This document shows, one piece after another, positions 3,447 through 56,885 of a stretch of 64,000 nucleotides of DNA. Source of the DNA: the human T2T-CHM13v2.0 reference genome, Homo sapiens. The notes beneath the pieces were generated by a model, which searched no databases, was not told where the DNA came from, and was given only the letters and a program-made list of their open reading frames with translations. Location of the stretch: the NCBI RefSeq assembly GCF_009914755.1, contig NC_060932.1; one strand, 5' to 3'. How positions within the stretch are numbered: the first letter of the stretch is position 1; each line of letters starts with the position of its first letter. The translations under genes and the position numbers were made by a program.

Positions 3447-5474
3447 CTAAGGACAGGCCAGGGCGGCGGGAGAGGCGGACCGGTGGCGTGGCTGGATCTG
3501 GGCGCGCTGTCGGACCTTCCACATCACCAGCTGCAGGCAGGCGTTTGCGTCCTCGCTGGAGTTGTGGCCGTCCTGGCTGTCCTGGATGATCTGTGCCAGG
3601 TAGTCGGCCGCGAGATTCCTGAGGGAGCGCTTGTAGGGGAAACCCAGGTAGTGCGGGAAGAGCACGGCCGTGTCCACCACGGTGCTGTGGATGAGCTTCA
3701 GGGCCAGCAGGTCGCTCTCCAGGCTGTGCCCGATGAGGATGGTTTGGGCGCTGAAAAAGCTCAGCAGGATGGCTTGGACTTGGGGCAACGTGATGCTCGT
3801 CTTGGCGACGTCGGCCTCGGTGACTCCGGAAAACCTGGTGTTGTAGTCCACGATCTCGTTGTCGGGCTTGACGAAGGTGTCGTACACCACTCGCATGTCG
3901 GCGTCCACCACGGTGACGCGGGTCAGCTCTAGGCCATGCGTGGTGTAGCACATCTCACAGTCCAAGGCATAGATTCCTGGATAAGCGTCTCTGGACAACT
4001 CTTTCTTGAAGGTCTCCACGAAGCCATCGAGGCTCTCCTTGCGGCCGTCCCGCACGTGCTGCTTTGCCACCTGGCAGCCCACAGAGCCAGGAGCAGCTGC
4101 ACAGCAGGTGTACTGGCTAACCCGGCCTCCAGCCACCTGGCTCGAGCGGACCCGCCCCCAGTGATAATAACACAACTGGTCGCGTACACAGCGGCCCGAG
4201 GAGGACACCAGGTACTCGGTGCCACAACGGCAGCAGACCCTGCAGGAGGAGTCGCCGGGCCCCTTCCCCTGGCCAGTGAAGAGGACGGCGCCTCCGGGCC
4301 GCTCGGGGTGCGGGAAGGGGTAGCCGTTCTCCTTGAGCTGGTCCTGGGTGAGCAGGAACTCCTGGAGGCGGCTGTACAGGGCGGCCCTGCTGAGGCCGGG
4401 CATGGAGCTGGGGGTCAGGCCCTTCAGTCTCTTGAGGGTGTTCAGGACCACGTTCAGGTACCTGTTCTTGTTGGGGCTGCAGTCGTAGGCCACCTTCTCC
4501 TCGTTCAGCGCCTTCTCCTCGGCCTCCTGCTTGGAGGCGCAGAACTTGAGACACTCTTCGGTGAACAGTTGGAGATAGCCTCGGCGGAGGACGGTGGGGA
4601 CTTGGCACCCAGAGCTTCGGAGGATAATGGGTTTCTTCAAACTCAAACTCGGTAAGGATGCACGACGGACGATTCGCTTAGAGCTGGTGGTGGCGGTGGT
4701 CTTGCATGCCATCCCTGACCTGTTGCGCGTCTTCCCTGGCTGTCTGCCGACCTTGGAGCCACGGGAGCGTTGGCTGCTGCTGGCCACCCGGGTTCTCTTG
4801 GCATCTGTGTAACCTGTGACCAAGCAAGGGCTGGAAGAGTGGGCGATCGTCTTCCTCTTCCTGGGGGCTGAGATGCGGACTCCCGAGGGCCTCTCTGTCA
4901 GCCTTGGGGCGGCTGGCAAGCGGCAGGCCGATCCCCTCTGCGCAGGGAAGTAGCACGACTCCGTCACCATCTTGGGCCACGCTGGGGGCACCGCCGGACC
5001 CCTGTTCTGGGGCTCCGCCTGGATGTCCACAAATGCTGAGGCCTGCTTGTGCATCTGGGGCACCCAGAGCCCGAAGCTCTGGGCAGGCTGATGAGAGGGC
5101 AGTGGGAATTCTGGAGCCTCGAGGGCCGCCTCCTCGGCCACCTTCTTAGCTTCTGGGTATCCAGGTGGGAACCAGCAGGGAGCTGTGGCTCGCAACATCT
5201 TGCTGCCTTCGGGAGCACCGGCCGGGCTCTGCTCCGCTCCCAAATGGCGGCTTGCCTCCGGGGCCGCCTCCTTGGCCACCTTCTTAGCTTCTGGGTATCC
5301 AGGGCGGAACCAGCAGGGAGCTGTGGCTCGCAACATCTTGCTGCCTTCGGGAGCACCGGCCTGGCTCTGCTCCCCTCCCAAATGGCGGCTTGCCTCCAGG
5401 GCCGCCTCCTCGGCCACCTTCTTAGCTTCTGGGTATCCAGGGGGGAACCAGCAGGGAGCTGTGGCTCGCAACAT
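3447..5474 (-). CDS. REXO1L1: REXO1-like exonuclease GOR, copy 1 (675 aa from first ATG, intronless; often annotated as a pseudogene)
   Basis: Open frame with DEDDh motifs [23 protein letters not shown]; Cys/His cluster; 3x46-aa N-terminal repeat; the ORF-track start at 5519 is a TTG. Confidence 0.88.
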
Positions 5475-15639: not shown

Positions 15640-17667
15640 CTAAGGACAGGCCAGGGCGGCGGGAGAGGCGGACCGGTGGCGTGGCTGGATCTGGGCGCGC
15701 TGTCGGACCTTCCACATCACCAGCTGCAGGCAGGCGTTTGCGTCCTCGCTGGAGTTGTGGCCGTCCTGGCTGTCCTGGATGATCTGTGCCAGGTAGTCGG
15801 CCGCGAGATTCCTGAGGGAGCGCTTGTAGGGGAAACCCAGGTAGTGCGGGAAGAGCACGGCCGTGTCCACCACGGTGCTGTGGATGAGCTTCAGGGCCAG
15901 CAGGTCGCTCTCCAGGCTGTGCCCGATGAGGATGGTTTGGGCGCTGAAAAAGCTCAGCAGGATGGCTTGGACTTGGGGCAACGTGATGCTCGTCTTGGCG
16001 ACGTCGGCCTCGGTGACTCCGGAAAACCTGGTGTTGTAGTCCACGATCTCGTTGTCGGGCTTGACGAAGGTGTCGTACACCACTCGCATGTCGGCGTCCA
16101 CCACGGTGACGCGGGTCAGCTCTAGGCCATGCGTGGTGTAGCACATCTCACAGTCCAAGGCGTAGATTCCTGGATAAGCGTCTCTGGACAACTCTTTCTT
16201 GAAGGTCTCCACGAAGCCATCGAGGCTCTCCTTGCGGCCGTCCCGCACGTGCTGCTTTGCCACCTGGCAGCCCACAGAGCCAGGAGCAGCTGCACAGCAG
16301 GTGTACTGGCTAACCCGGCCTCCAGCCACCTGGCTCGAGCGGACCCGCCCCCAGTGATAATAACACAACTGGTCGCGTACACAGCGGCCCGAGGAGGACA
16401 CCAGGTACTCGGTGCCACAACGGCAGCAGACCCTGCAGGAGGAGTCGCCGGGCCCCTTCCCCTGGCCAGTGAAGAGGACGGCGCCTCCGGGCCGCTCGGG
16501 GTGCGGGAAGGGGTAGCCGTTCTCCTTGAGCTGGTCCTGGGTGAGCAGGAACTCCTGGAGGCGGCTGTACAGGGCGGCCCTGCTGAGGCCGGGCATGGAG
16601 CTGGGGGTCAGGCCCTTCAGTCTCTTGAGGGTGTTCAGGACCACGTTCAGGTACCTGTTCTTGTTGGGGCTGCAGTCGTAGGCCACCTTCTCCTCGTTCA
16701 GCGCCTTCTCCTCGGCCTCCTGCTTGGAGGCGCAGAACTTGAGACACTCTTCGGTGAACAGTTGGAGATAGCCTCGGCGGAGGACGGTGGGGACTTGGCA
16801 CCCAGAGCTTCGGAGGATAATGGGTTTCTTCAAACTCAAACTCGGTAAGGATGGACGACGGACGATTCGCTTAGAGCTGGTGGTGGCGGTGGTCTTGCAT
16901 GCCATCCCTGACCTGTTGCGCGTCTTCCCTGGCTGTCTGCCGACCTTGGAGCCACGGGAGCGTTGGCTGCTGCTGGCCACCCGGGTTCTCTTGGCATCTG
17001 TGTAACCTGTGACCAAGCAAGGGCTGGAAGAGTGGGCGATCGTCTTCCTCTTCCTGGGGGCTGAGATGCGGACTCCCGAGGGCCTCTCTGTCAGCCTTGG
17101 GGCGGCTGGCAAGCGGCAGGCCGATCCCCTCTGCGCAGGGAAGTAGCACGACTCCGTCACCATCTTGGGCCACGCTGGGGGCACCGCCGGACCCCTGTTC
17201 TGGGGCTCCGCCTGGATGTCCACAAATGCTGAGGCCTGCTTGTGCATCTGGGGCACCCAGAGCCCGAAGCTCTGGGCAGGCTGATGAGAGGGCAGTGGGA
17301 ATTCTGGAGCCTCGAGGGCCGCCTCCTCGGCCACCTTCTTAGCTTCTGGGTATCCAGGTGGGAACCAGCAGGGAGCTGTGGCTCGCAACATCTTGCTGCC
17401 TTCGGGAGCACCGGCCGGGCTCTGCTCCGCTCCCAAATGGCGGCTTGCCTCCGGGGCCGCCTCCTTGGCCACCTTCTTAGCTTCTGGGTATCCAGGGCGG
17501 AACCAGCAGGGAGCTGTGGCTCGCAACATCTTGCTGCCTTCGGGAGCACCGGCCTGGCTCTGCTCCCCTCCCAAATGGCGGCTTGCCTCCAGGGCCGCCT
17601 CCTCGGCCACCTTCTTAGCTTCTGGGTATCCAGGGGGGAACCAGCAGGGAGCTGTGGCTCGCAACAT
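15640..17667 (-). CDS. REXO1L1: REXO1-like exonuclease GOR, copy 2 (P272 variant)
   Basis: Same 675-aa ORF; IVRRPSL instead of IVRRASL. Confidence 0.88.
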
Positions 17668-27832: not shown

Positions 27833-29860
27833 CTAAGGACAGGCCAGGGCGGCGGGAGAGGCGGACCGGTGGCGTGGCTGGATCTGGGCGCGCTGTCGGA
27901 CCTTCCACATCACCAGCTGCAGGCAGGCGTTTGCGTCCTCGCTGGAGTTGTGGCCGTCCTGGCTGTCCTGGATGATCTGTGCCAGGTAGTCGGCCGCGAG
28001 ATTCCTGAGGGAGCGCTTGTAGGGGAAACCCAGGTAGTGCGGGAAGAGCACGGCCGTGTCCACCACGGTGCTGTGGATGAGCTTCAGGGCCAGCAGGTCG
28101 CTCTCCAGGCTGTGCCCGATGAGGATGGTTTGGGCGCTGAAAAAGCTCAGCAGGATGGCTTGGACTTGGGGCAACGTGATGCTCGTCTTGGCGACGTCGG
28201 CCTCGGTGACTCCGGAAAACCTGGTGTTGTAGTCCACGATCTCGTTGTCGGGCTTGACGAAGGTGTCGTACACCACTCGCATGTCGGCGTCCACCACGGT
28301 GACGCGGGTCAGCTCTAGGCCATGCGTGGTGTAGCACATCTCACAGTCCAAGGCGTAGATTCCTGGATAAGCGTCTCTGGACAACTCTTTCTTGAAGGTC
28401 TCCACGAAGCCATCGAGGCTCTCCTTGCGGCCGTCCCGCACGTGCTGCTTTGCCACCTGGCAGCCCACAGAGCCAGGAGCAGCTGCACAGCAGGTGTACT
28501 GGCTAACCCGGCCTCCAGCCACCTGGCTCGAGCGGACCCGCCCCCAGTGATAATAACACAACTGGTCGCGTACACAGCGGCCCGAGGAGGACACCAGGTA
28601 CTCGGTGCCACAACGGCAGCAGACCCTGCAGGAGGAGTCGCCGGGCCCCTTCCCCTGGCCAGTGAAGAGGACGGCGCCTCCGGGCCGCTCGGGGTGCGGG
28701 AAGGGGTAGCCGTTCTCCTTGAGCTGGTCCTGGGTGAGCAGGAACTCCTGGAGGCGGCTGTACAGGGCGGCCCTGCTGAGGCCGGGCATGGAGCTGGGGG
28801 TCAGGCCCTTCAGTCTCTTGAGGGTGTTCAGGACCACGTTCAGGTACCTGTTCTTGTTGGGGCTGCAGTCGTAGGCCACCTTCTCCTCGTTCAGCGCCTT
28901 CTCCTCGGCCTCCTGCTTGGAGGCGCAGAACTTGAGACACTCTTCGGTGAACAGTTGGAGATAGCCTCGGCGGAGGACGGTGGGGACTTGGCACCCAGAG
29001 CTTCGGAGGATAATGGGTTTCTTCAAACTCAAACTCGGTAAGGATGGACGACGGACGATTCGCTTAGAGCTGGTGGTGGCGGTGGTCTTGCATGCCATCC
29101 CTGACCTGTTGCGCGTCTTCCCTGGCTGTCTGCCGACCTTGGAGCCACGGGAGCGTTGGCTGCTGCTGGCCACCCGGGTTCTCTTGGCATCTGTGTAACC
29201 TGTGACCAAGCAAGGGCTGGAAGAGTGGGCGATCGTCTTCCTCTTCCTGGGGGCTGAGATGCGGACTCCCGAGGGCCTCTCTGTCAGCCTTGGGGCGGCT
29301 GGCAAGCGGCAGGCCGATCCCCTCTGCGCAGGGAAGTAGCACGACTCCGTCACCATCTTGGGCCACGCTGGGGGCACCGCCGGACCCCTGTTCTGGGGCT
29401 CCGCCTGGATGTCCACAAATGCTGAGGCCTGCTTGTGCATCTGGGGCACCCAGAGCCCGAAGCTCTGGGCAGGCTGATGAGAGGGCAGTGGGAATTCTGG
29501 AGCCTCGAGGGCCGCCTCCTCGGCCACCTTCTTAGCTTCTGGGTATCCAGGTGGGAACCAGCAGGGAGCTGTGGCTCGCAACATCTTGCTGCCTTCGGGA
29601 GCACCGGCCGGGCTCTGCTCCGCTCCCAAATGGCGGCTTGCCTCCGGGGCCGCCTCCTTGGCCAGCTTCTTAGCTTCTGGGTATCCAGGGCGGAACCAGC
29701 AGGGAGCTGTGGCTCGCAACATCTTGCTGCCTTCGGGAGCACCGGCCTGGCTCTGCTCCCCTCCCAAATGGCGGCTTGCCTCCAGGGCCGCCTCCTCGGC
29801 CACCTTCTTAGCTTCTGGGTATCCAGGGGGGAACCAGCAGGGAGCTGTGGCTCGCAACAT
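27833..29860 (-). CDS. REXO1L1: REXO1-like exonuclease GOR, copy 3 (L66, P272 variants)
   Basis: Same 675-aa ORF; KKLAKE and IVRRPSL. Confidence 0.88.
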
Positions 29861-35786: not shown

Positions 35787-36722
35787 CGTTTTCCATTTTT
35801 TTTTAAATTATACTTTAATTACTAGGGTACATGTGCACAACGTGCAGGTTTATTACGTATGTAAGCACGTGCCATGTTGGTGTGCTGCACCCATTCACTA
35901 GTCATTTACATTAGGTATATCTCTTAATGTTATCCCTCCCCCTCCCCCCGCCCATGACAGGCCCCGGTGTGTGATGTTCCCCTTTCTGCGTCCAAGTGTT
36001 CTCCTAGTTCAATTCCCACCTATGAGTGGGATCACGCGGTGTTTGGTTTTTTTGTCCTTGCGATAGTTTGCTAAGAATGATGGTTTCCAGCTTCATCCGT
36101 GTCCCTCCGAAGGGCATGAACACATGCTTTTTTATGGCTGCATAGTATTCCACGGTGTATTTGTGCCACGTTTCCTTAATCCAGTCTATCATTGATGGAC
36201 ATCTGGGCTGGTTCCAAGTCTTTGCTACTGTGAACGGTGCTGCAATAAACATACGTCTGCGTGTGTCCTTTTAGCAGCATGATTTATAGTCCTATGGGTG
36301 TATACCCAGTAATGGGACGGCTGAGTCAAATGGTATTTCTAATTCTAGATCCTTGAGGATTCGCCACACTATCTTCCACAACCGCTGAACTGGTTTACAG
36401 TCCCACCAGCAGTGTAAAAGTGTCCCTATTTCTCCACTACCTCTCCAGCACCTGTTGTTTCCTGACTTTTTTATTGATCGCTATTCTAACTGGTGTGAGA
36501 CGATATCTCTTTGCGGATTTGATTTGCATTTCTCTGATGACCAGTGTTGATGAGCATTTTTTCATGTGTCTGTTGGCTGCATAAATGTCTTCTTTTTAGA
36601 AGTGTCTCTTCATATCCTTCCCGCACTTATTGATGGGGTTGTTTGGTTTTTCTTGTAACTCTGTTTGAGTTCTTAGTAGATTCTGGATATTAGCCCTTTG
36701 TCAGATGAGTAGATTGCAAAAA
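35787..36722 (-). mobile_element. 3' ~0.93-kb fragment of the L1PA, cut by the inversion; forms the palindrome spacer
   Basis: L1 3'UTR and ORF2 end, stopping at ...agattgcaaaaa. Confidence 0.93.
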
Positions 36723-38798: not shown

Positions 38799-41237
38799 AA
38801 CAATTCTAATTCAACTAATTTATTTTATAGAAATATTTATGTGTGAGAAACAATATTTTCAAGAGTCAAAGATTTAAAACTGCTTAATTGTACATCACTA
38901 AGTGGCTGGCTAATAAATTATAGTACGTTCATCCTTACGGAAGAATACTTTGCAGCTAAAACAGAACGAAAGAGAGGAAACTCTTCAAAATGTTAACTGG
39001 GAATGACGTTCAAGACTTATTGTTAAATAAAACAAATTGAGAAGAAGAGTCGTTTATTGGTACTAAATTTGTGTCAGTAAAAATGGATTCTATACGTGGG
39101 ATGGTTTATAAGTATGTGGAAAAATTCTTTGATGGTTTTTCCTTGAAAAAGTGAAACCTAAATCCACTCCGTTTGGATGTGGGCCTATTTACGGTTGTTG
39201 CTTCCTAAACATAAACTACGTTTAGGCTGATATTTCAGACAATGAAACCTTTGAGTGCCCGTAGCGGGAAGATCTCGGTTGCTGAGTGCAGGGAAGGAGG
39301 ATGTAATTCCATCATATATACTCTCTGTGCCTACCGCATTTGGAACCATGCGAGTGATACCTATTTATAAAATAAAATAAACCAAGCACAAGTACGAACT
39401 TAGCAACACTACATTGAGTTAATAGAACGGTATCTTGTATTTCTTCTGTCCAGGTATACTTATAAATGCCTGCAGGGATTTCACCACCTCAGGGTGGAGA
39501 GACTCAATGCTTGTGAGGGAATTAGGATGGTGGAATATTGGTGTTACCAGGGAAGGGGGCGGGATGTTTGAAAATGCTATGTTTACTCGTTCTTGGGTTC
39601 CAATAAAGGAGAAACAGGGCACAGGAGTCGGAAGGACTAGTGGCAATAGTGATGAAAGGACCTCCTTATCATGCTGGCAATGTTAATTACCCAGGTGTAG
39701 GAAGCCATACACTGAGGCGGAAGATCGCAAGTCAGAGTGGCCGGCAGGCACAACCTCCTGGCACACCAGAGGCAGGTCTTCAATACCCACTGGTTTCCCC
39801 AACAGGCTGCGTAAGGGACCCTGAGCCACAGTGAGTTGGTCAAATGCTCCTGACAGTGTGGAGAAACCAACAGGCAAAACGTGGGTGCAAAAGTGATGAG
39901 ACCCCACACTTTACACTCGTGGTGACAATGAAGCTATTAAGTAACAGCTTCTCAACCTATGCTGTTTCCTGCTGGATGCACATAATCCATTTGCACTGCA
40001 GACAATTTTAGGATGTGGTTTACAGTAAGGTGGATGGTACCTTATGGCAAAAATCTCTCAGAAATTTATGTGTGGTTTTAAAGTCATTCCAGTCCTAGCA
40101 CGTTGCGCTTTTCAGAGACGCCATAGCTGTTTTTCCCTTTGTAATATCAAAGCAGTAATATCTTCTCTGGAGGCCTGTTGGGTGAATTTAATGGAATCAA
40201 GTTAAGTAGGTGCCAGAACCATTGCTGTTTTCCCTCCATAGCCCTGCCACCCACTGTAAAAAGGTTGATGAGATTACTTAATGATTTCCAATTAAGTTGT
40301 ATTTCCAAATATCATGATTTCCATTTTAATGTAGTTGGTATGGAGCTCTGTGAGTGTGTGCTTCTTTTATTATGGATCACGTTCAGCTTCTTTTTATTTG
40401 CCTCCTAGTCATAATAGTAAAACTCTACTCCTCTACTCCGAGGAGTCCCTACCACCCATCTCATCACTTTCCAGCCCAGCACTCTTCATGCTCATTCATT
40501 TAAAGCATTCAACATTGTGTAAATGAATCTTGGAAGGCCAAAGCTACTGAATTTAGCGAATTTGTGGAGGCATTGCCACAAATCAGCCAGGTGAAGTTTC
40601 ACACAATCGAAGACTGCACAACTCCTAGAAGGCAGCACTATGCTGCAAACCCAGACGGCCACTCTTCTCACCCCTCGTCCGTTTGCTGTTCTGGATAATG
40701 AGGTTCAAAAGTCACCTAGGCAACTGCCAAAATAGCTGAAATGGAGAAAGGGCTTCAGGCTGGTGACTAGCAGAGGTCCACCTGACCCCCGTAAGCTGCT
40801 GAACAAGTAGGGCTGCCAGAAATGTCCCACTAGGGAATTTGGTAGAGACGAAGACATGCTCACCGGACAAGGGTTCCTCCCAGGATACGCCCGAGCGGAA
40901 GAAGCGGGCTCTGAGCCACGCCCTTTCACCCTCCTCTACCCCGCCCTGGGCTGGTGAAGGTGCGCGCCAGGATGTGGACTACTGAGCCCTGAAGAAATAA
41001 GTCCTTCCACTTTGACCCCATGGAGGATTGCCTGTGAGGAACTTAAACGAGTCTACCAGTGTCTAGACACGGGGGCAGGTCTGTCCGGCACAGCAGCTCC
41101 CTCAAGGAGGAGAAGAGTGAGGAGAAAGGAAACTCAAGTCTCACCATTCTGTCCTGGGAGAGAAGAGGAGGATCTCATCTCTCATCTGTCCAAACAAGGC
41201 AAGGAGACTTTCTCTCATCTTTCCAAGCAAGGCAAGG

Positions 41238-42124
41238 AGACTTTTTATCATTAGGAAACAAAAAGAATTTAGAAGGAATGAAAGCAGCCCGTAAGGTGAA
41301 TTCCTAAGGACTGCCCATTGAAACTGACAAAATTGCCCTTGTTTGATGAGAGGAATGAGCAGAGCATTGATGTGGTGAACAAGGATCTAGTGAGACTTTC
41401 CCAGCATGTTTCTACCAAAGCTTTATCTAAGCTTCTCAGAACACTCTCCTAATAAGCAGATGTTTGGCCTTTCAGAAAGTCAACAAGCAAAATGCCTTGA
41501 GTGTCCCAAAACACTGATGCCATGATGTGGGCTCCTGACTGGCCTCCTTTTCCTTTGACTGGACCACTGCCACCTCTTGGTAGCCATCGCTTTCATGATG
41601 CTTTGCCTTGGCGATCATATTGGTGAAGCCATGCTCCAACTGCCGCTTACAATTTGTCAGAGGGATGCGTCAGGATCGTGATCCCTCCTGTTTAAAATTT
41701 CCACTGATAGCTCTCGTCGTAACTGCAGCTGATCTGGGCACAGTGGTTTTCACAGCCACTGCAGGATTCATCTTCCACATCTTCTCACCTCTTCTTGAAA
41801 CAAGCTATACATTCGTAAAGAGTTCATTTCTTTGGGGTAGTGTCCTTACAAGCTTTTCTTAAAACGTCAATGATTTCTTCAATCTTCCACCCAAGCTTCA
41901 CCATAAATTTGATGTTTCCTCTTGCTGCAATTTTCGTGGAATTCAAGTTGCTCTGACGGGAGTCCTTTTCAGTGGATGTCTCATCCTTCTTAGTGCCTCA
42001 AACTAGATCTAGTTCAGAAAGGTTATCAGAAGTTAGGACAAGTTTATTTTAGTGCAAACCAGTGGAAATCCATGCATAGTTTCTTCACCATGTGCATTTT
42101 CTATGAAGCTTTGGAAGACCACCT
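41238..42124 (-). mobile_element. HSMAR2 remnant, inverted block
   Basis: Reverse-complement copy. Confidence 0.85.
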
Positions 42125-42446
42125 GTGTTGAACATTGCCCAAGTCCTGGGAGAGAAGTGGGTGCGGTCCGCTTCCTGTCCTCAATTTGCCCGCAGCGGCG
42201 GAGTGCACAGAGCAGGGAAAGGCAGCCCCAGAGGGATCCCGCCCTCCAGCATGCAGCAGACTGCTGGCCCAGTCCTGGCTCCAAGGGGTGCTGTGTGGGC
42301 CCAAGCAAGTTGACCAACCTCCCTGAACCTTAATTTAATCCTAGGTAGCCCAATTCCAGTAGCCATTATAGGACTGCCCTGCAGGGACAGTTACTTAACT
42401 CAGGAAAAGCAACCTAGCTCCAAGTTTAGCAACCGGGAGTTCCAGT

Positions 42447-42607
42447 TGATTCCATTAGCGCACCCCCTGAGGCATTCCCAAGCTGGAGTCTGGTGGAAGA
42501 TGAGGCTCAGTGTGATTGGACTGAAGCACCAACCTATCAAGGAGAAGTCCCACCCAGTCTGCCCTGTGCCTATATAAAGGCGACAAGTGGCGGCCGCAGC
42601 ACTCATT
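42447..42607 (+). promoter_or_regulatory. Core promoter, copy 4
   Basis: TGATTCCATTA 42447-42457, ATTGG 42515-42519, TATATAAA 42571-42578, TCATT 42603-42607. Confidence 0.65.
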
Positions 42608-42608
42608 G

Positions 42609-43022
42609 AAGCCGCCAGTTGGGAGAGGAGCAGAGCCAGGCCGGTGCTCCCGAAGGCAGCAAGATGTTGCGAGCCACAGCTCCCTGCTGGTTCCCCCCTG
42701 GATACCCAGAAGCTAAGAAGGTGGCCGAGGAGGCGGCCCTGGAGGCAAGCCGCCATTTGGGAGGGGAGCAGAGCCAGGCCGGTGCTCCCGAAGGCAGCAA
42801 GATGTTGCGAGCCACAGCTCCCTGCTGGTTCCGCCCTGGATACCCAGAAGCTAAGAAGGTGGCCAAGGAGGCGGCCCCGGAGGCAAGCCGCCATTTGGGA
42901 GCGGAGCAGAGCCCGGCCGGTGCTCCCGAAGGCAGCAAGATGTTGCGAGCCACAGCTCCCTGCTGGTTCCCACCTGGATACCCAGAAGCTAAGAAGGTGG
43001 CCGAGGAGGCGGCCCTCGAGGC
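42609..43022 (+). repeat. 138-bp tandem repeat x3, copy 4
   Basis: ATG at 42664, 42802 and 42940. Confidence 0.95.
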
Positions 43023-44691
43023 TCCAGAATTCCCACTGCCCTCTCATCAGCCTGCCCAGAGCTTCGGGCTCTGGGTGCCCCAGATGCACAAGCAGGCCTC
43101 AGCATTTGTGGACATCCAGGCGGAGCCCCAGAACAGGGGTCCGGCGGTGCCCCCAGCGTGGCCCAAGATGGTGACGGAGTCGTGCTACTTCCCTGCGCAG
43201 AGGGGATCGGCCTGCCGCTTGCCAGCCGCCCCAAGGCTGACAGAGAGGCCCTCGGGAGTCCGCATCTCAGCCCCCAGGAAGAGGAAGACGATCGCCCACT
43301 CTTCCAGCCCTTGCTTGGTCACAGGTTACACAGATGCCAAGAGAACCCGGGTGGCCAGCAGCAGCCAACGCTCCCGTGGCTCCAAGGTCGGCAGACAGCC
43401 AGGGAAGACGCGCAACAGGTCAGGGATGGCATGCAAGACCACCGCCACCACCAGCTCTAAGCGAATCGTCCGTCGTGCATCCTTACCGAGTTTGAGTTTG
43501 AAGAAACCCATTATCCTCCGAAGCTCTGGGTGCCAAGTCCCCACCGTCCTCCGCCGAGGCTATCTCCAACTGTTCACCGAAGAGTGTCTCAAGTTCTGCG
43601 CCTCCAAGCAGGAGGCCGAGGAGAAGGCGCTGAACGAGGAGAAGGTGGCCTACGACTGCAGCCCCAACAAGAACAGGTACCTGAACGTGGTCCTGAACAC
43701 CCTCAAGAGACTGAAGGGCCTGACCCCCAGCTCCATGCCCGGCCTCAGCAGGGCCGCCCTGTACAGCCGCCTCCAGGAGTTCCTGCTCACCCAGGACCAG
43801 CTCAAGGAGAACGGCTACCCCTTCCCGCACCCCGAGCGGCCCGGAGGCGCCGTCCTCTTCACTGGCCAGGGGAAGGGGCCCGGCGACTCCTCCTGCAGGG
43901 TCTGCTGCCGTTGTGGCACCGAGTACCTGGTGTCCTCCTCGGGCCGCTGTGTACGCGACCAGTTGTGTTATTATCACTGGGGGCGGGTCCGCTCGAGCCA
44001 GGTGGCTGGAGGCCGGGTTAGCCAGTACACCTGCTGTGCAGCTGCTCCTGGCTCTGTGGGCTGCCAGGTGGCAAAGCAGCACGTGCGGGACGGCCGCAAG
44101 GAGAGCCTCGATGGCTTCGTGGAGACCTTCAAGAAAGAGTTGTCCAGAGACGCTTATCCAGGAATCTACGCCTTGGACTGTGAGATGTGCTACACCACGC
44201 ATGGCCTAGAGCTGACCCGCGTCACCGTGGTGGACGCCGACATGCGAGTGGTGTACGACACCTTCGTCAAGCCCGACAACGAGATCGTGGACTACAACAC
44301 CAGGTTTTCCGGAGTCACCGAGGCCGACGTCGCCAAGACGAGCATCACGTTGCCCCAAGTCCAAGCCATCCTGCTGAGCTTTTTCAGCGCCCAAACCATC
44401 CTCATCGGGCACAGCCTGGAGAGCGACCTGCTGGCCCTGAAGCTCATCCACAGCACCGTGGTGGACACGGCCGTGCTCTTCCCGCACTACCTGGGTTTCC
44501 CCTACAAGCGCTCCCTCAGGAATCTCGCGGCCGACTACCTGGCACAGATCATCCAGGACAGCCAGGACGGCCACAACTCCAGCGAGGACGCAAACGCCTG
44601 CCTGCAGCTGGTGATGTGGAAGGTCCGACAGCGCGCCCAGATCCAGCCACGCCACCGGTCCGCCTCTCCCGCCGCCCTGGCCTGTCCTTAG
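42664..44691 (+). CDS. REXO1L1: REXO1-like exonuclease GOR, copy 4 (inverted block)
   Basis: ATG at 42664 (aagATGt), TAG at 44689-44691; DEDDh motifs intact. Confidence 0.88.
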
Positions 44692-44817
44692 CCCCAGGCC
44701 TCTTCCAAAACCGCCATCAGTCCCGAGAGCTCACCCTGCCCACCTCGCCGCAAAGCGAAAGAAACTGGAGCAGCCGGCGGCAGGAGAGGGCAAAAAGCCA
44801 AGAGTAACCCCAACCCC

Positions 44818-45014
44818 CCACTCCCGGTCCCCCGGAATCCCTGCCGCGGCCCCTCGGGCCTGTCCACATCCCTCTGCCCCTCCCAGACCTCTGTCCTTCC
44901 ACCAATCGCCTCCCGCAGCCCCGAGCCGCCACTCCCAGTCCCCCGAGTCCCTGCCGCGCGCCCTCGCGCCTGTCCACATCCCTCTGCCCATCCGAGACCT
45001 CTGTCCTTACACCA
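44818..45014 (+). repeat. ~111-bp-period duplication just 3' of the stop codon (all copies, e.g. ~3124-3320)
   Basis: CCACTCCC(G/A)GTCCCCCG...CCTGTCCACATCCCTCTGCCC...GACCTCTGTCCTT(C/A)CACCA x2. Confidence 0.85.
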
Positions 45015-45255
45015 CTAGCCACCCCACGTGGGACTTCCATGGCTTCTGAGTACAAGGCCAGCCCCCCGGCCCACCAGCTTTCGGAATGCCTGCTTACCTC
45101 TTTTTCTGTAGAGGCACCACAGGGAGGTGGGTGAAGCACTTCGGCTCTGGAGTTACAGATCTGGGTTCAAGGCCAAATTCCACCACTTACTAGGTTTGTA
45201 ATATTGGACAGATGACGTCTTTGCGCTTCTACCTTTTGGTCTTTAAAGTGTGATC

Positions 45256-48927
<3,672 letters not shown>

Positions 48928-54857: not shown

Positions 54858-56885
54858 ATGTTGCGAGCCACAGCTCCCTGCTGGTTCCCCCCTGGATACC
54901 CAGAAGCTAAGAAGGTGGCCGAGGAGGCGGCCCTGGAGGCAAGCCGCCATTTGGGAGGGGAGCAGAGCCAGGCCGGTGCTCCCGAAGGCAGCAAGATGTT
55001 GCGAGCCACAGCTCCCTGCTGGTTCCGCCCTGGATACCCAGAAGCTAAGAAGGTGGCCAAGGAGGCGGCCCCGGAGGCAAGCCGCCATTTGGGAGCGGAG
55101 CAGAGCCCGGCCGGTGCTCCCGAAGGCAGCAAGATGTTGCGAGCCACAGCTCCCTGCTGGTTCCCACCTGGATACCCAGAAGCTAAGAAGGTGGCCGAGG
55201 AGGCGGCCCTCGAGGCTCCAGAATTCCCACTGCCCTCTCATCAGCCTGCCCAGAGCTTCGGGCTCTGGGTGCCCCAGATGCACAAGCAGGCCTCAGCATT
55301 TGTGGACATCCAGGCGGAGCCCCAGAACAGGGGTCCGGCGGTGCCCCCAGCGTGGCCCAAGATGGTGACGGAGTCGTGCTACTTCCCTGCGCAGAGGGGA
55401 TCGGCCTGCCGCTTGCCAGCCGCCCCAAGGCTGACAGAGAGGCCCTCGGGAGTCCGCATCTCAGCCCCCAGGAAGAGGAAGACGATCGCCCACTCTTCCA
55501 GCCCTTGCTTGGTCACAGGTTACACAGATGCCAAGAGAACCCGGGTGGCCAGCAGCAGCCAACGCTCCCGTGGCTCCAAGGTCGGCAGACAGCCAGGGAA
55601 GACGCGCAACAGGTCAGGGATGGCATGCAAGACCACCGCCACCACCAGCTCTAAGCGAATCGTCCGTCGTGCATCCTTACCGAGTTTGAGTTTGAAGAAA
55701 CCCATTATCCTCCGAAGCTCTGGGTGCCAAGTCCCCACCGTCCTCCGCCGAGGCTATCTCCAACTGTTCACCGAAGAGTGTCTCAAGTTCTGCGCCTCCA
55801 AGCAGGAGGCCGAGGAGAAGGCGCTGAACGAGGAGAAGGTGGCCTACGACTGCAGCCCCAACAAGAACAGGTACCTGAACGTGGTCCTGAACACCCTCAA
55901 GAGACTGAAGGGCCTGACCCCCAGCTCCATGCCCGGCCTCAGCAGGGCCGCCCTGTACAGCCGCCTCCAGGAGTTCCTGCTCACCCAGGACCAGCTCAAG
56001 GAGAACGGCTACCCCTTCCCGCACCCCGAGCGGCCCGGAGGCGCCGTCCTCTTCACTGGCCAGGGGAAGGGGCCCGGCGACTCCTCCTGCAGGGTCTGCT
56101 GCCGTTGTGGCACCGAGTACCTGGTGTCCTCCTCGGGCCGCTGTGTACGCGACCAGTTGTGTTATTATCACTGGGGGCGGGTCCGCTCGAGCCAGGTGGC
56201 TGGAGGCCGGGTTAGCCAGTACACCTGCTGTGCAGCTGCTCCTGGCTCTGTGGGCTGCCAGGTGGCAAAGCAGCACGTGCGGGACGGCCGCAAGGAGAGC
56301 CTCGATGGCTTCGTGGAGACCTTCAAGAAAGAGTTGTCCAGAGACGCTTATCCAGGAATCTACGCCTTGGACTGTGAGATGTGCTACACCACGCATGGCC
56401 TAGAGCTGACCCGCGTCACCGTGGTGGACGCCGACATGCGAGTGGTGTACGACACCTTCGTCAAGCCCGACAACGAGATCGTGGACTACAACACCAGGTT
56501 TTCCGGAGTCACCGAGGCCGACGTCGCCAAGACGAGCATCACGTTGCCCCAAGTCCAAGCCATCCTGCTGAGCTTTTTCAGCGCCCAAACCATCCTCATC
56601 GGGCACAGCCTGGAGAGCGACCTGCTGGCCCTGAAGCTCATCCACAGCACCGTGGTGGACACGGCCGTGCTCTTCCCGCACTACCTGGGTTTCCCCTACA
56701 AGCGCTCCCTCAGGAATCTCGCGGCCGACTACCTGGCACAGATCATCCAGGACAGCCAGGACGGCCACAACTCCAGCGAGGACGCAAACGCCTGCCTGCA
56801 GCTGGTGATGTGGAAGGTCCGACAGCGCGCCCAGATCCAGCCACGCCACCGGTCCGCCTCTCCCGCCGCCCTGGCCTGTCCTTAG
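54858..56885 (+). CDS. REXO1L1: REXO1-like exonuclease GOR, copy 5 (inverted block)
   Basis: Protein identical to copies 1 and 4 in the ORF track. Confidence 0.88.

What the first reader, a model, noticed from the sequence alone, without database searches (positions are those of the whole stretch)
44161..44620. All five 'pseudogene' copies keep a full ORF and a complete DEDDh catalytic set
Seen: ExoI (ALDCEM), ExoII (GHSLESD) and ExoIII (HNSSED) motifs, plus the upstream Cys/His cluster (CCRC...C.YHWG...YTCC...GC), are intact in 5/5 copies. I see only two amino-acid differences among copies (V66L, A272P), while the adjacent L1 shows many more variants. Established: these residues define active DEDDh 3'-5' exonucleases of the REX1 family. 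Inference: an amplified, potentially active RNA exonuclease retrogene whose dosage is set by array length.
Basis: partly seen in the sequence, partly recalled or inferred. Interest (0 to 1): 0.7.

Follow-up and report, generated by a model that had tools for sequence, protein, structure and literature searches.

The report
Human "pseudogene" array hides selected exonuclease
All 72 copies of a so-called pseudogene in this human chromosome 8 repeat array keep an unbroken, evolutionarily protected gene for what is likely an RNA-trimming enzyme, which would be a real, highly copy-variable human gene, predicted to act in germ cells or early embryos.

Summary
Observation confirmed and extended. The window is part of the known REXO1L1/GOR array at 8q21.2. 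All 5 window copies and all 72 copies found in this genome keep an open frame, the catalytic set (D505, E507, D588, H637, D642), the CHORD ligands and a TATA box. Sameness among near-identical copies is weak evidence. The lineage test is strong: 64 amino-acid changes on the GOR branch, none at 80 family-conserved columns, and simian orthologues differ 36-38% in the linker but 8-10% in the nuclease. GOR is a Rex3/REXO1-type protein (KIX-CHORD-DEDDh), not Rex1-type. It is a retrocopy of a REXO1 RNA that kept one intron; the upstream exon relics are dead, and the retained intron supplies promoter-like elements and a new N-terminus. That N-terminus starts with a motif nearly invariant across simians, found in short relatives from other mammals and tripled in 63 of 72 human copies. 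Its spacing resembles PAM2w (poly(A)-binding-protein docking), but it fails the PAM2 profile. Activity, expression site and dosage effect are untested; the gene is methylated in somatic cells. The intact ORF is partly known; my searches found no report of the selection, origin or motif.

The parts
42664..44691 (+). GOR/REXO1L ORF, copy 4 (675 aa, single exon); holds the finding's coordinates
3447..5474 (-). GOR ORF, copy 1 (intact; no row in the supplied RefSeq table)
15640..17667 (-). GOR ORF, copy 2 (P272)
27833..29860 (-). GOR ORF, copy 3 (L66, P272)
54858..56885 (+). GOR ORF, copy 5 (intact; no row in the supplied RefSeq table)
40750..41206 (+). Dead relics of two upstream REXO1 exons, joined without their intron; stops and frameshifts in the REXO1 frame; an internal control of the same age as the ORF
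   Evidence: 68-76% identity to REXO1 exons
41798..42663 (+). Retained REXO1 intron (3' part), 64-70% identical to the parent; carries the promoter-like elements and the predicted 5' UTR
42515..42519 (-). Inverted CCAAT-box-like element, also present at the aligned place in the REXO1 intron
   Evidence: function inferred
42571..42578 (+). TATA-box match about 90 bp before the ATG, no ATG in between; present in 72 of 72 copies, degenerate in REXO1
   Evidence: function inferred
42609..43022 (+). Three 138-bp repeats (5' UTR piece plus first 28 codons) that triple the N-terminal motif; 3 repeats in 63 copies, 2 in 7, 1 in 2
42943..42972 (+). Conserved N-terminal motif, spacing L-x3-A-x2-W-x-P (third repeat, aa 94-103; first at 42667-42696; the second, 42805-42834, has R for the last P)
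43543..43722 (+). Three-helix KIX-like bundle (aa 294-353), inside Pfam EloA-BP1
   Evidence: Gal11 KIX, Z 8.4, rmsd 4.5, 74 aligned; PMC12129344
43903..44082 (+). CHORD-type Cys/His domain (C414, C417, C435, H438, C457, C458, C467, H473)
   Evidence: PMC12129344
44161..44640 (+). DEDDh exonuclease domain (D505, E507, D588, H637, D642)
44644..45068 (+). Sequence derived from the REXO1 3' UTR; an 11-bp gap spans the parent stop, and the GOR stop TAG aligns with a TAG in the parent UTR
45300..47900 (+).
   Evidence: L1 name recalled from the translation

Best explanation
Each repeat unit carries an intact, purifying-selected retrogene for a short REXO1-type protein that is likely an active 3'-to-5' RNA exonuclease, likely made only where the array is demethylated (germ cells or early embryo) and likely docked on poly(A)-binding protein through its N-terminal motif to shorten or clear mRNAs. 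SHOWN: (1) 72 of 72 copies are open; (2) the gene derives from a REXO1 RNA spliced at every downstream intron, skipping one exon and keeping one intron; (3) the upstream exon relics decayed while the ORF did not; (4) change on the GOR lineage avoided the family-conserved positions; (5) the N-terminal motif is conserved and lies in intron-derived sequence. INFERRED: the retained intron brought an internal promoter (70%); the enzyme is active (80%); expression is germline or embryonic (60%); the motif binds the MLLE domain (about 40%); the substrate is mRNA, as for fly Prage. The gene-level claim (a selected protein-coding gene in simians) I put at about 0.9; the confidence given here is for the whole mechanism.
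For: 72 of 72 copies open with all motifs and TATA; past the repeats 19 missense, 14 silent, 1 in-frame 6-bp indel, 0 disruptive variants. In aa 290-660, 81 differences to REXO1, 0 at 80 columns conserved in at least 85% of 92 other homologues, p 3e-10; 64 changes map to the GOR branch, 6 to REXO1, 10 ambiguous. Human against 4 New World monkey proteins: linker 36-38% different, DEDDh 8-10%, p 1e-8 or smaller in each; gibbon 17% against 2%. dN/dS against REXO1 in DEDDh 0.24-0.32, dS 0.42-0.53. Model of aa 290-660 at pLDDT 93.6 matches SDN1, ISG20 and Pan2 (Z 19.6, 18.5, 17.0). Exon-by-exon match to REXO1, retained intron, dead upstream relics. Motif: 1 of 14 columns varies among 9 simian proteins against 103 of 174 in the next stretch; the pattern occurs in 22 of 268 fetched proteins, all short GOR-like forms, 21 within the first 16 residues, about 2 expected by chance. 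PAM2/PAM2w anchors are L, A and F/W at this spacing (PMC7356810). P0015 has an intron-type N-terminus with the motif and a core identical to a pig REXO1 protein, so the parent gene can make such a short form. Prage, a Rex3-clade protein, is needed for maternal mRNA turnover (PMC12129344, PMC4889664). RT-PCR signal in cell lines after DNase (PMC4422118).
Against: No nuclease assay was found in print; PMC4422118 says activity remains to be shown. The motif lacks the PAM2 asparagine, has no PF07145 match, scores 1.2 bits against 16-33 for 10 canonical human PAM2 motifs (that set held no W variant), and finds no PAM2 peptide in the PDB. The KIX bundle is kept, which points to a nuclear role and is absent from Prage. 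dN/dS against REXO1 in the KIX stretch is 0.68-0.87 with an interval that includes 1. Within-array pN/pS is 0.45-0.56, only borderline (p 0.02-0.07), and 1.0-1.2 in aa 281-490. Titi monkey models P0013 and P0032 look frameshifted and gorilla P0003 lacks 9 residues in DEDDh. No REXO1L row in the searched supplements of three human embryo, oocyte or DUX4 papers (they may simply not list it). Only one peptide-spectrum match. I found no direct evidence of germline expression.
Confidence: 0.4

Rival explanations
1. A real, selected exonuclease gene that works in the nucleus like REXO1/Rex3: the KIX bundle would bring it to RNA polymerase II or an Elongin A paralogue to trim or degrade nascent or small RNAs, possibly paired with the ELOA3 retrogene array; the N-terminal motif would bind some other partner.
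For: KIX, CHORD and DEDDh are all kept. Yeast Rex3 needs its KIX region, and REXO1 was found as an Elongin A binder (PMC12129344). REXO1L1 and TCEB3C/ELOA3 arrays both reach their highest copy numbers in gorilla and chimpanzee (PMC4063668). The motif fails the PAM2 profile.
Against: GOR lacks the first roughly 660 residues of REXO1. The ELOA3 paper's main text has no occurrence of REXO (PMC10664989). The most conserved stretch outside the folded core is the new N-terminal motif, which full-length REXO1 does not carry. Parallel copy numbers in a few apes are not a test of co-evolution.
Confidence: 0.35
2. A formerly functional simian retrogene that is silent or relaxed in humans; the 72 copies look intact only because recent expansion and gene conversion copied one intact unit.
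For: Copies are over 99.5% identical; only 1.7 nonsense variants expected among them; the gene region is methylated in CHM13 and 84% methylated in non-tumour liver (PMC4460673); protein evidence is one spectrum; copy number varies 108-266 among HapMap individuals.
Against: Human differs from chimpanzee and gorilla more in the linker (8%, 6%) than in DEDDh (2%, 1%), p 0.01-0.02. Within the array DEDDh has 2 missense against 4 silent variants (p 0.03-0.06). Repeat-number changes and the one indel are all in frame. The CDS is 5-6 times less variable than the flanks although CpG-rich.
Confidence: 0.2
3. A neutral processed pseudogene since insertion; the motifs are inherited from REXO1 and survive by chance.
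For: Named a pseudogene in PMC8099727 and in bioRxiv 10.64898/2025.12.23.696241; intronless copy.
Against: dS about 0.4 to the parent with 0 of 64 lineage changes at conserved columns; the upstream relics of the same insertion carry stops and frameshifts; ORF open in apes and four New World monkeys, where 6-7 nonsense changes alone would be expected at an assumed neutral distance of 0.10-0.12 (recalled value).
Confidence: 0.03

Closest known systems
REXO1L1 / GOR (Q8IX06, 'putative exonuclease GOR'), 8q21.2 12.2-kb VNTR
   Same: It is this locus. The array, its copy-number range, its inverted domains, the 675-aa model and the DEDDh assignment are in print (PMC4063668, PMC8099727, PMC4422118); KIX and CHORD in GOR are noted in PMC12129344.
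   Different: PMC8099727 and the 2025 neocentromere preprint call it a pseudogene. New here: 72 of 72 intact, lineage-level purifying selection, origin from an intron-retaining RNA, the conserved and tripled N-terminal motif, and the human stop being the ancestral one.
REXO1 (EloA-BP1) / yeast Rex3 clade of DEDDh exoribonucleases
   Same: KIX-CHORD-DEDDh order, DCEM, DL and IQ signatures, Tyr after ExoI; about 78% identical to REXO1 in aa 290-660 (81 of 371 differ).
   Different: Lacks the long REXO1 N-terminus and one exon inside EloA-BP1; has an intron-derived N-terminus and a UTR-derived tail; intronless and amplified.
ELOA3 (TCEB3C) macrosatellite retrogene array
   Same: Tandem primate retrogenes annotated as pseudogenes, intact ORFs, concerted evolution, variable copy number, purifying selection (PMC10664989).
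   Different: ELOA3 protein was shown to act; GOR has not been. GOR-like short proteins also occur outside primates.
Drosophila Prage
   Same: Rex3-clade exonuclease with a disordered N-terminus, needed for maternal mRNA turnover (PMC12129344, PMC4889664).
   Different: Prage lacks KIX; orthology to GOR is not claimed; no Prage sequence was examined here.
PAM2w motif of LARP4/LARP4B
   Same: Near-N-terminal motif with L, A and W at the anchor spacing LNxxAxx[F/W] (PMC7356810).
   Different: GOR has R in place of the conserved N; profile score is low; binding is untested.

Membership tests
DEDDh 3'-5' exonucleases | ExoI D-x-E, ExoII D, ExoIII H-x4-D | tested here: met
   D505, E507, D588, H637, D642 align with SDN1 and ISG20; present in 72 of 72 copies
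DEDDh 3'-5' exonucleases | DEDD fold | tested here: met
   Model pLDDT 93.6; 5z9x Z 19.6, rmsd 2.9, 191 aligned; 1wlj Z 18.5, rmsd 1.9, 155 aligned; PF00929 34 bits over cut-off 24
DEDDh 3'-5' exonucleases | Metal-dependent exonuclease activity | not testable with these tools
   No assay possible; none found in the papers read
Rex3/REXO1 clade | KIX three-helix bundle upstream | tested here: met
   Helices at aa 294-308, 315-331, 336-353; Gal11 KIX Z 8.4, rmsd 4.5, 74 aligned, a middling score; Y339 conserved in 82 of 92 homologues; PF15870 E 2e-38
Rex3/REXO1 clade | Single CHORD (two C3H sets) next to a C-terminal DEDDh | tested here: met
   Six Cys and two His match columns conserved in 91-92 of 92 homologues; the CHORD fold match itself is taken from PMC12129344 and was not listed
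Rex1/REXO5/SDN5 clade | DEDDh domain inserted in an AlkP domain | tested here: not met
   DEDDh is C-terminal, preceded by CHORD and followed by about 16 residues; definition from PMC12129344
Retrogene of REXO1 | Parent exons joined without introns | tested here: met
   Twelve coding exon blocks, each bounded by AG/GT in the parent, are contiguous in GOR; one intron is retained
Retrogene of REXO1 | Poly(A) relic and target-site duplication | tested here: inconclusive
   Similarity to the parent UTR ends near 45068; no A run of 8 or more in the 1.5 kb after the stop; target-site duplication not sought
Processed pseudogene | Disabled ORF and neutral decay | tested here: not met
   0 of 72 disabled; strong constraint
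PAM2 (PF07145) | Profile match to LNxxAxEFxP | tested here: not met
   No hit at E 10; 1.2 bits against 16-33
PAM2w variant | Anchors L, A, W at positions 1, 5, 8, with N at position 2 | tested here: inconclusive
   L, A, W (and P at 10) are present and conserved; N is absent
PAM2w variant | Binding to the MLLE domain | not testable with these tools
   Needs a binding assay

The most novel reading that the evidence does not exclude
GOR is the mammalian working counterpart of fly Prage: a short REXO1 form, handed over in simians from the parent's internal promoter to a tandem retrogene array, that docks on poly(A)-binding protein through a PAM2w-like motif (tripled on the human line) and clears maternal or germline mRNAs, so that the 2.5-fold human copy-number range tunes fertility or early development.
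Probability: 0.15. Interest if true: 0.85.

Novelty: new variant of a known kind. Interest (0 to 1): 0.6.

Why it matters
One of the largest and most variable tandem arrays in the human genome is treated as pseudogene DNA and so can drop out of expression tables. The evidence here says it encodes a protein that selection has guarded across apes and monkeys, a second case like ELOA3 of a real gene family hidden in a macrosatellite. It gives the long-open question of what GOR does testable handles: a promoter, a catalytic mutant, a short conserved motif whose number differs among human copies, and a candidate partner domain. It also shows a way for a retrocopy to be expressed from birth: copying an intron-retaining RNA that carries an internal promoter.

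Tried and rejected
Complex prediction of the GOR N-terminal 36 residues with an MLLE domain (L053): score 0.15 against a mark of 0.34, verdict no answer, controls not folded; neither for nor against. Pfam PAM2 scans, a PAM2 matrix and a PDB profile search gave no match. A first fold of aa 93-675 with 31 close rows was poor (pLDDT 42) and was replaced by a core fold with 106 rows. The chr9 multi-exon REXO1-like relic as parent: rejected, only 64-65% identical in DNA to both GOR and REXO1 in the one exon that aligned, against about 86% for GOR-REXO1 there, and no match to the GOR upstream region in the 11.5 kb read. The '1 TGA' flags are artefacts of copies with two repeats; those ORFs are open at 629 aa. 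The antisense ORFs (239 and 215 aa) overlap the CDS and were taken as shadows, not tested. A DUX4 site in the promoter was considered by eye (two mismatches to the recalled consensus), not pursued; no REXO1L row in PMC8990217 supplements. One eutherian origin of all short forms: they fall on one side of the tree with support 81, long branches, not shown (both quick trees). Atlas look-up of P0006 returned only REXO1/GOR/Rex3 clusters. Five papers were not held: Tyson 2014, the 2001 GOR paper, and three expression resources. Flanks were compared for the 5 window copies and 30 protein-identical copies only; the latter set is biased and was not used as evidence.

Full report
WHAT THE WINDOW IS. 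The window holds five copies of a 12.19-kb unit, three on the minus strand and two on the plus strand, over 99.5% identical, with an inversion junction at 35802/36718. Each has a 2028-bp single-exon ORF. It is the REXO1L1/GOR VNTR at 8q21.2: about 71 units in five alternating domains in CHM13 (PMC8099727, passages), 108-266 diploid copies in HapMap and up to about 860 in a gorilla (PMC4063668, passages and supplement rows).

THE OBSERVATION. Confirmed. The five CDSs differ at 3 sites: V66L, A272P and a silent change at codon 502. The L1 stretch has 24 variable sites in 2.6 kb (p 3e-4). The trough of variation extends several hundred bases past the CDS on both sides, and sites in a homogenised array are not independent, so this contrast is suggestive only. 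Three genome searches gave the same set of copies (66; 72; the tool calls such counts lower bounds). I read all 72: 62 of 675 aa, 7 of 629, and one each of 673, 583 and 581. All end in TAG, all carry ExoI-III, the Cys/His motifs and a TATA match; length differences are the number of 138-bp repeats and one 6-bp indel. Past the repeats there are 19 missense and 14 silent variants and none disruptive; pN/pS 0.45-0.56 (p 0.02-0.07), DEDDh 2 against 4, but 6 against 2 in aa 281-490; only 1.7 nonsense variants were expected. The array alone does not prove function.

SELECTION ON THE LINEAGE. A homologue search (197 hits among 7992 scored candidates, 120 listed) gave full-length GOR proteins from chimpanzee, gorilla, gibbon, four New World monkeys and one unnamed record (P0005). 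They form one clade with support 100 in roughly species order (quick tree). Against human, the four monkey proteins differ at 36-38% of linker positions and 8-10% of DEDDh positions (p 1e-8 or smaller); gibbon 17% against 2%; chimpanzee 8% against 2%. A neutral sequence would diverge evenly. I rebuilt the matching REXO1 coding sequence from its exons (all AG/GT; 501 of 512 residues identical to a monkey REXO1). dS is 0.37-0.45 overall; dN/dS is 0.24-0.32 in DEDDh, 0.30-0.38 in CHORD and 0.65-0.87 in the N-terminal and KIX stretches. If only GOR were neutral about 0.5 would be expected (inference), so this pairwise test is modest. The sharper test: of 371 core positions, 80 are at least 85% conserved in 92 other homologues (rows 15-106 of alignment A3, which holds 106 of the 268 proteins fetched). 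GOR differs from REXO1 at 81 positions, none among the 80 (p 3e-10); 64 changes are on the GOR branch. The homologues were found with GOR as query, a mild bias. Against this: two titi monkey models look frameshifted and the gorilla model lacks 9 residues, so broken copies or poor models exist.

DOMAINS. A model of aa 290-660 (pLDDT 93.6) shows a three-helix bundle, a beta-rich Cys/His domain and the nuclease fold; best matches SDN1, ISG20 and Pan2, with the Gal11 KIX domain on the bundle at a middling Z of 8.4. PMC12129344 (passages and section 8) defines KIX + CHORD + C-terminal DEDDh as the Rex3/REXO1 clade, names GOR among its members, and separates it from Rex1.

ORIGIN. GOR matches REXO1 exon by exon with the introns gone and one exon skipped. 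Its first 60 codons, counted from the third repeat, match the end of a REXO1 intron, in frame with the next exon; 41798-42663 matches more of that intron at 64-70%; 40750-41206 matches the two exons before it, spliced together and now full of stops and frameshifts. The template was therefore an RNA that kept this one intron. The retained part holds an inverted CCAAT-like element shared with REXO1 and a TATA match 90 bp before the ATG. In human REXO1 an ATG opens the same frame. P0015, whose core is identical to a pig REXO1 protein, starts with this kind of intron-type N-terminus, which suggests that REXO1 has a short form from an internal start. I infer that the retrocopy carried that promoter with it. 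Short proteins of this build occur in mouse lemur, galago, loris, hare, beaver, squirrel and bats. They group apart from REXO1 with weak support (81), and some include the exon that GOR skips, so one origin or several is open. The GOR stop aligns with a TAG in the REXO1 3' UTR and is shared with gorilla and four New World monkeys; the chimpanzee model reads through into the tail. I recall that the pseudogene label traces to a 2001 report of a human stop before the chimpanzee GOR epitope; that paper was not held, so this is recall. The data here show that the stop lies after the whole nuclease and is the ancestral state.

THE N-TERMINAL MOTIF. The first 14 residues vary at 1 column among 9 simian proteins, against 103 of the next 174. 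The pattern L-x3-A-x2-[WF]-x-P is in 22 of 268 fetched proteins, all short forms, none full-length REXO1 (the pattern was written from GOR, so finding it in GOR's kin is partly circular). Human REXO1 has C for W. Human copies mostly have three repeats (63 of 72); the ape and monkey records have one, as do the two outermost human copies, and the left-edge copies also keep ape-like residues. The spacing fits the PAM2/PAM2w anchors LNxxAxx[F/W] (PMC7356810, passages), and a canonical motif at L082 continues with the same P-x-G-Y tail (the name PAIP1 is recalled). But the asparagine is missing, Pfam PAM2 does not hit and my matrix from 10 of 13 fetched motifs (3 were not parsed) scores it 1.2 against 16-33. 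It works like a conserved docking peptide; it is not filed as PAM2. I put MLLE binding at about 40%.

EXPRESSION. Weak. RT-PCR in cell lines, raised by irradiation (PMC4422118, first part of the text and passages). One spectrum of one GOR-specific peptide, below the authors' two-peptide rule (PMC7320927, table passage). The gene's 3 kb is methylated in CHM13; 84% in non-tumour liver and 54% in tumours (PMC4460673, passage). Supplement searches of PMC8990217, PMC9873803 and PMC9427852 found no REXO1L row (five files of the last were not searched and two were cut). Germline or embryonic expression is an inference from somatic methylation and from analogy with Prage (PMC4889664, abstract). The dosage claim is untested; the only REXO1L1 row in the expression table of PMC4063668 concerns a neighbouring gene. 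Supplements of the bioRxiv preprint are closed and could bear on transcription of the array.

NOVELTY. Known: locus, array, 675-aa model, DEDDh assignment, KIX and CHORD; RefSeq already models 2 of the 5 window copies as coding. Not found in print by my searches: REXO1 with PAM2, 0 papers; REXO1L with retrogene, 0; REXO1L1, 40 papers, 37 seen as listings, five opened in passages; exonuclease GOR 6, with oocyte 1, with testis 5; REXO1 with Elongin 10. Most subscription papers are outside the library. The closest precedent is ELOA3 (PMC10664989, passages), whose main text does not mention REXO.

VERDICT. Observation confirmed; interpretation partly supported. A selected protein-coding retrogene family, about 0.9. 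PABP-docked germline mRNA exonuclease 0.4; nuclear REXO1-like role 0.35; silent in humans 0.2; neutral pseudogene 0.03. Interest 0.6.

Noticed in passing
window 35802-36722: Inversion junction of the array: the two arms are separated by about 915 bp present in one orientation only, with 5 bp of overlap at 36718-36722; the left breakpoint sits at a T run that looks like an L1 3' end.
   Followed up: partly
window 3447-5474, 42664-44691, 54858-56885; L051: Three intact window copies have no row in the supplied RefSeq table, and the 195-bp 'REXO1L10P pseudogene' place falls on the 5' end of an intact 675-aa copy (L051).
   Followed up: partly
L033, L034, L037 (array edges): The two outermost copies have a single 138-bp repeat; the two left-edge copies lack a 6-bp insertion and keep I263 as in apes, so the edges escape homogenisation. 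Copies at the left edge are spaced about 6.8 kb, not 12.2 kb.
   Followed up: partly
L089-L092 (G000:C9:27.26-27.29 Mb): A decayed multi-exon REXO1-like paralogue, far from both GOR and REXO1 (45-64% protein identity per exon); REXO6P by recall.
   Followed up: partly
L031:9785-9390 (-), REXO1 intron end: Human REXO1 keeps an in-frame ATG in good Kozak context and a degenerate copy of the motif, a possible short isoform start.
   Followed up: partly
PMC9427852 supplement file 11, row 12529: Mouse Rexo1 RNA rises from about 2-7 in GV oocytes to 10-33 in MII oocytes, which would fit a maternal role for the parent gene.
   Followed up: no
window 41178-41251: A 33-bp tandem duplication sits exactly at the end of the dead exon relic.
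   Followed up: no
window 43483-44202 (-) and 42400-43047 (-): Antisense ORFs of 239 and 215 codons overlap every window copy; probably shadows of the GC-rich CDS.
   Followed up: no
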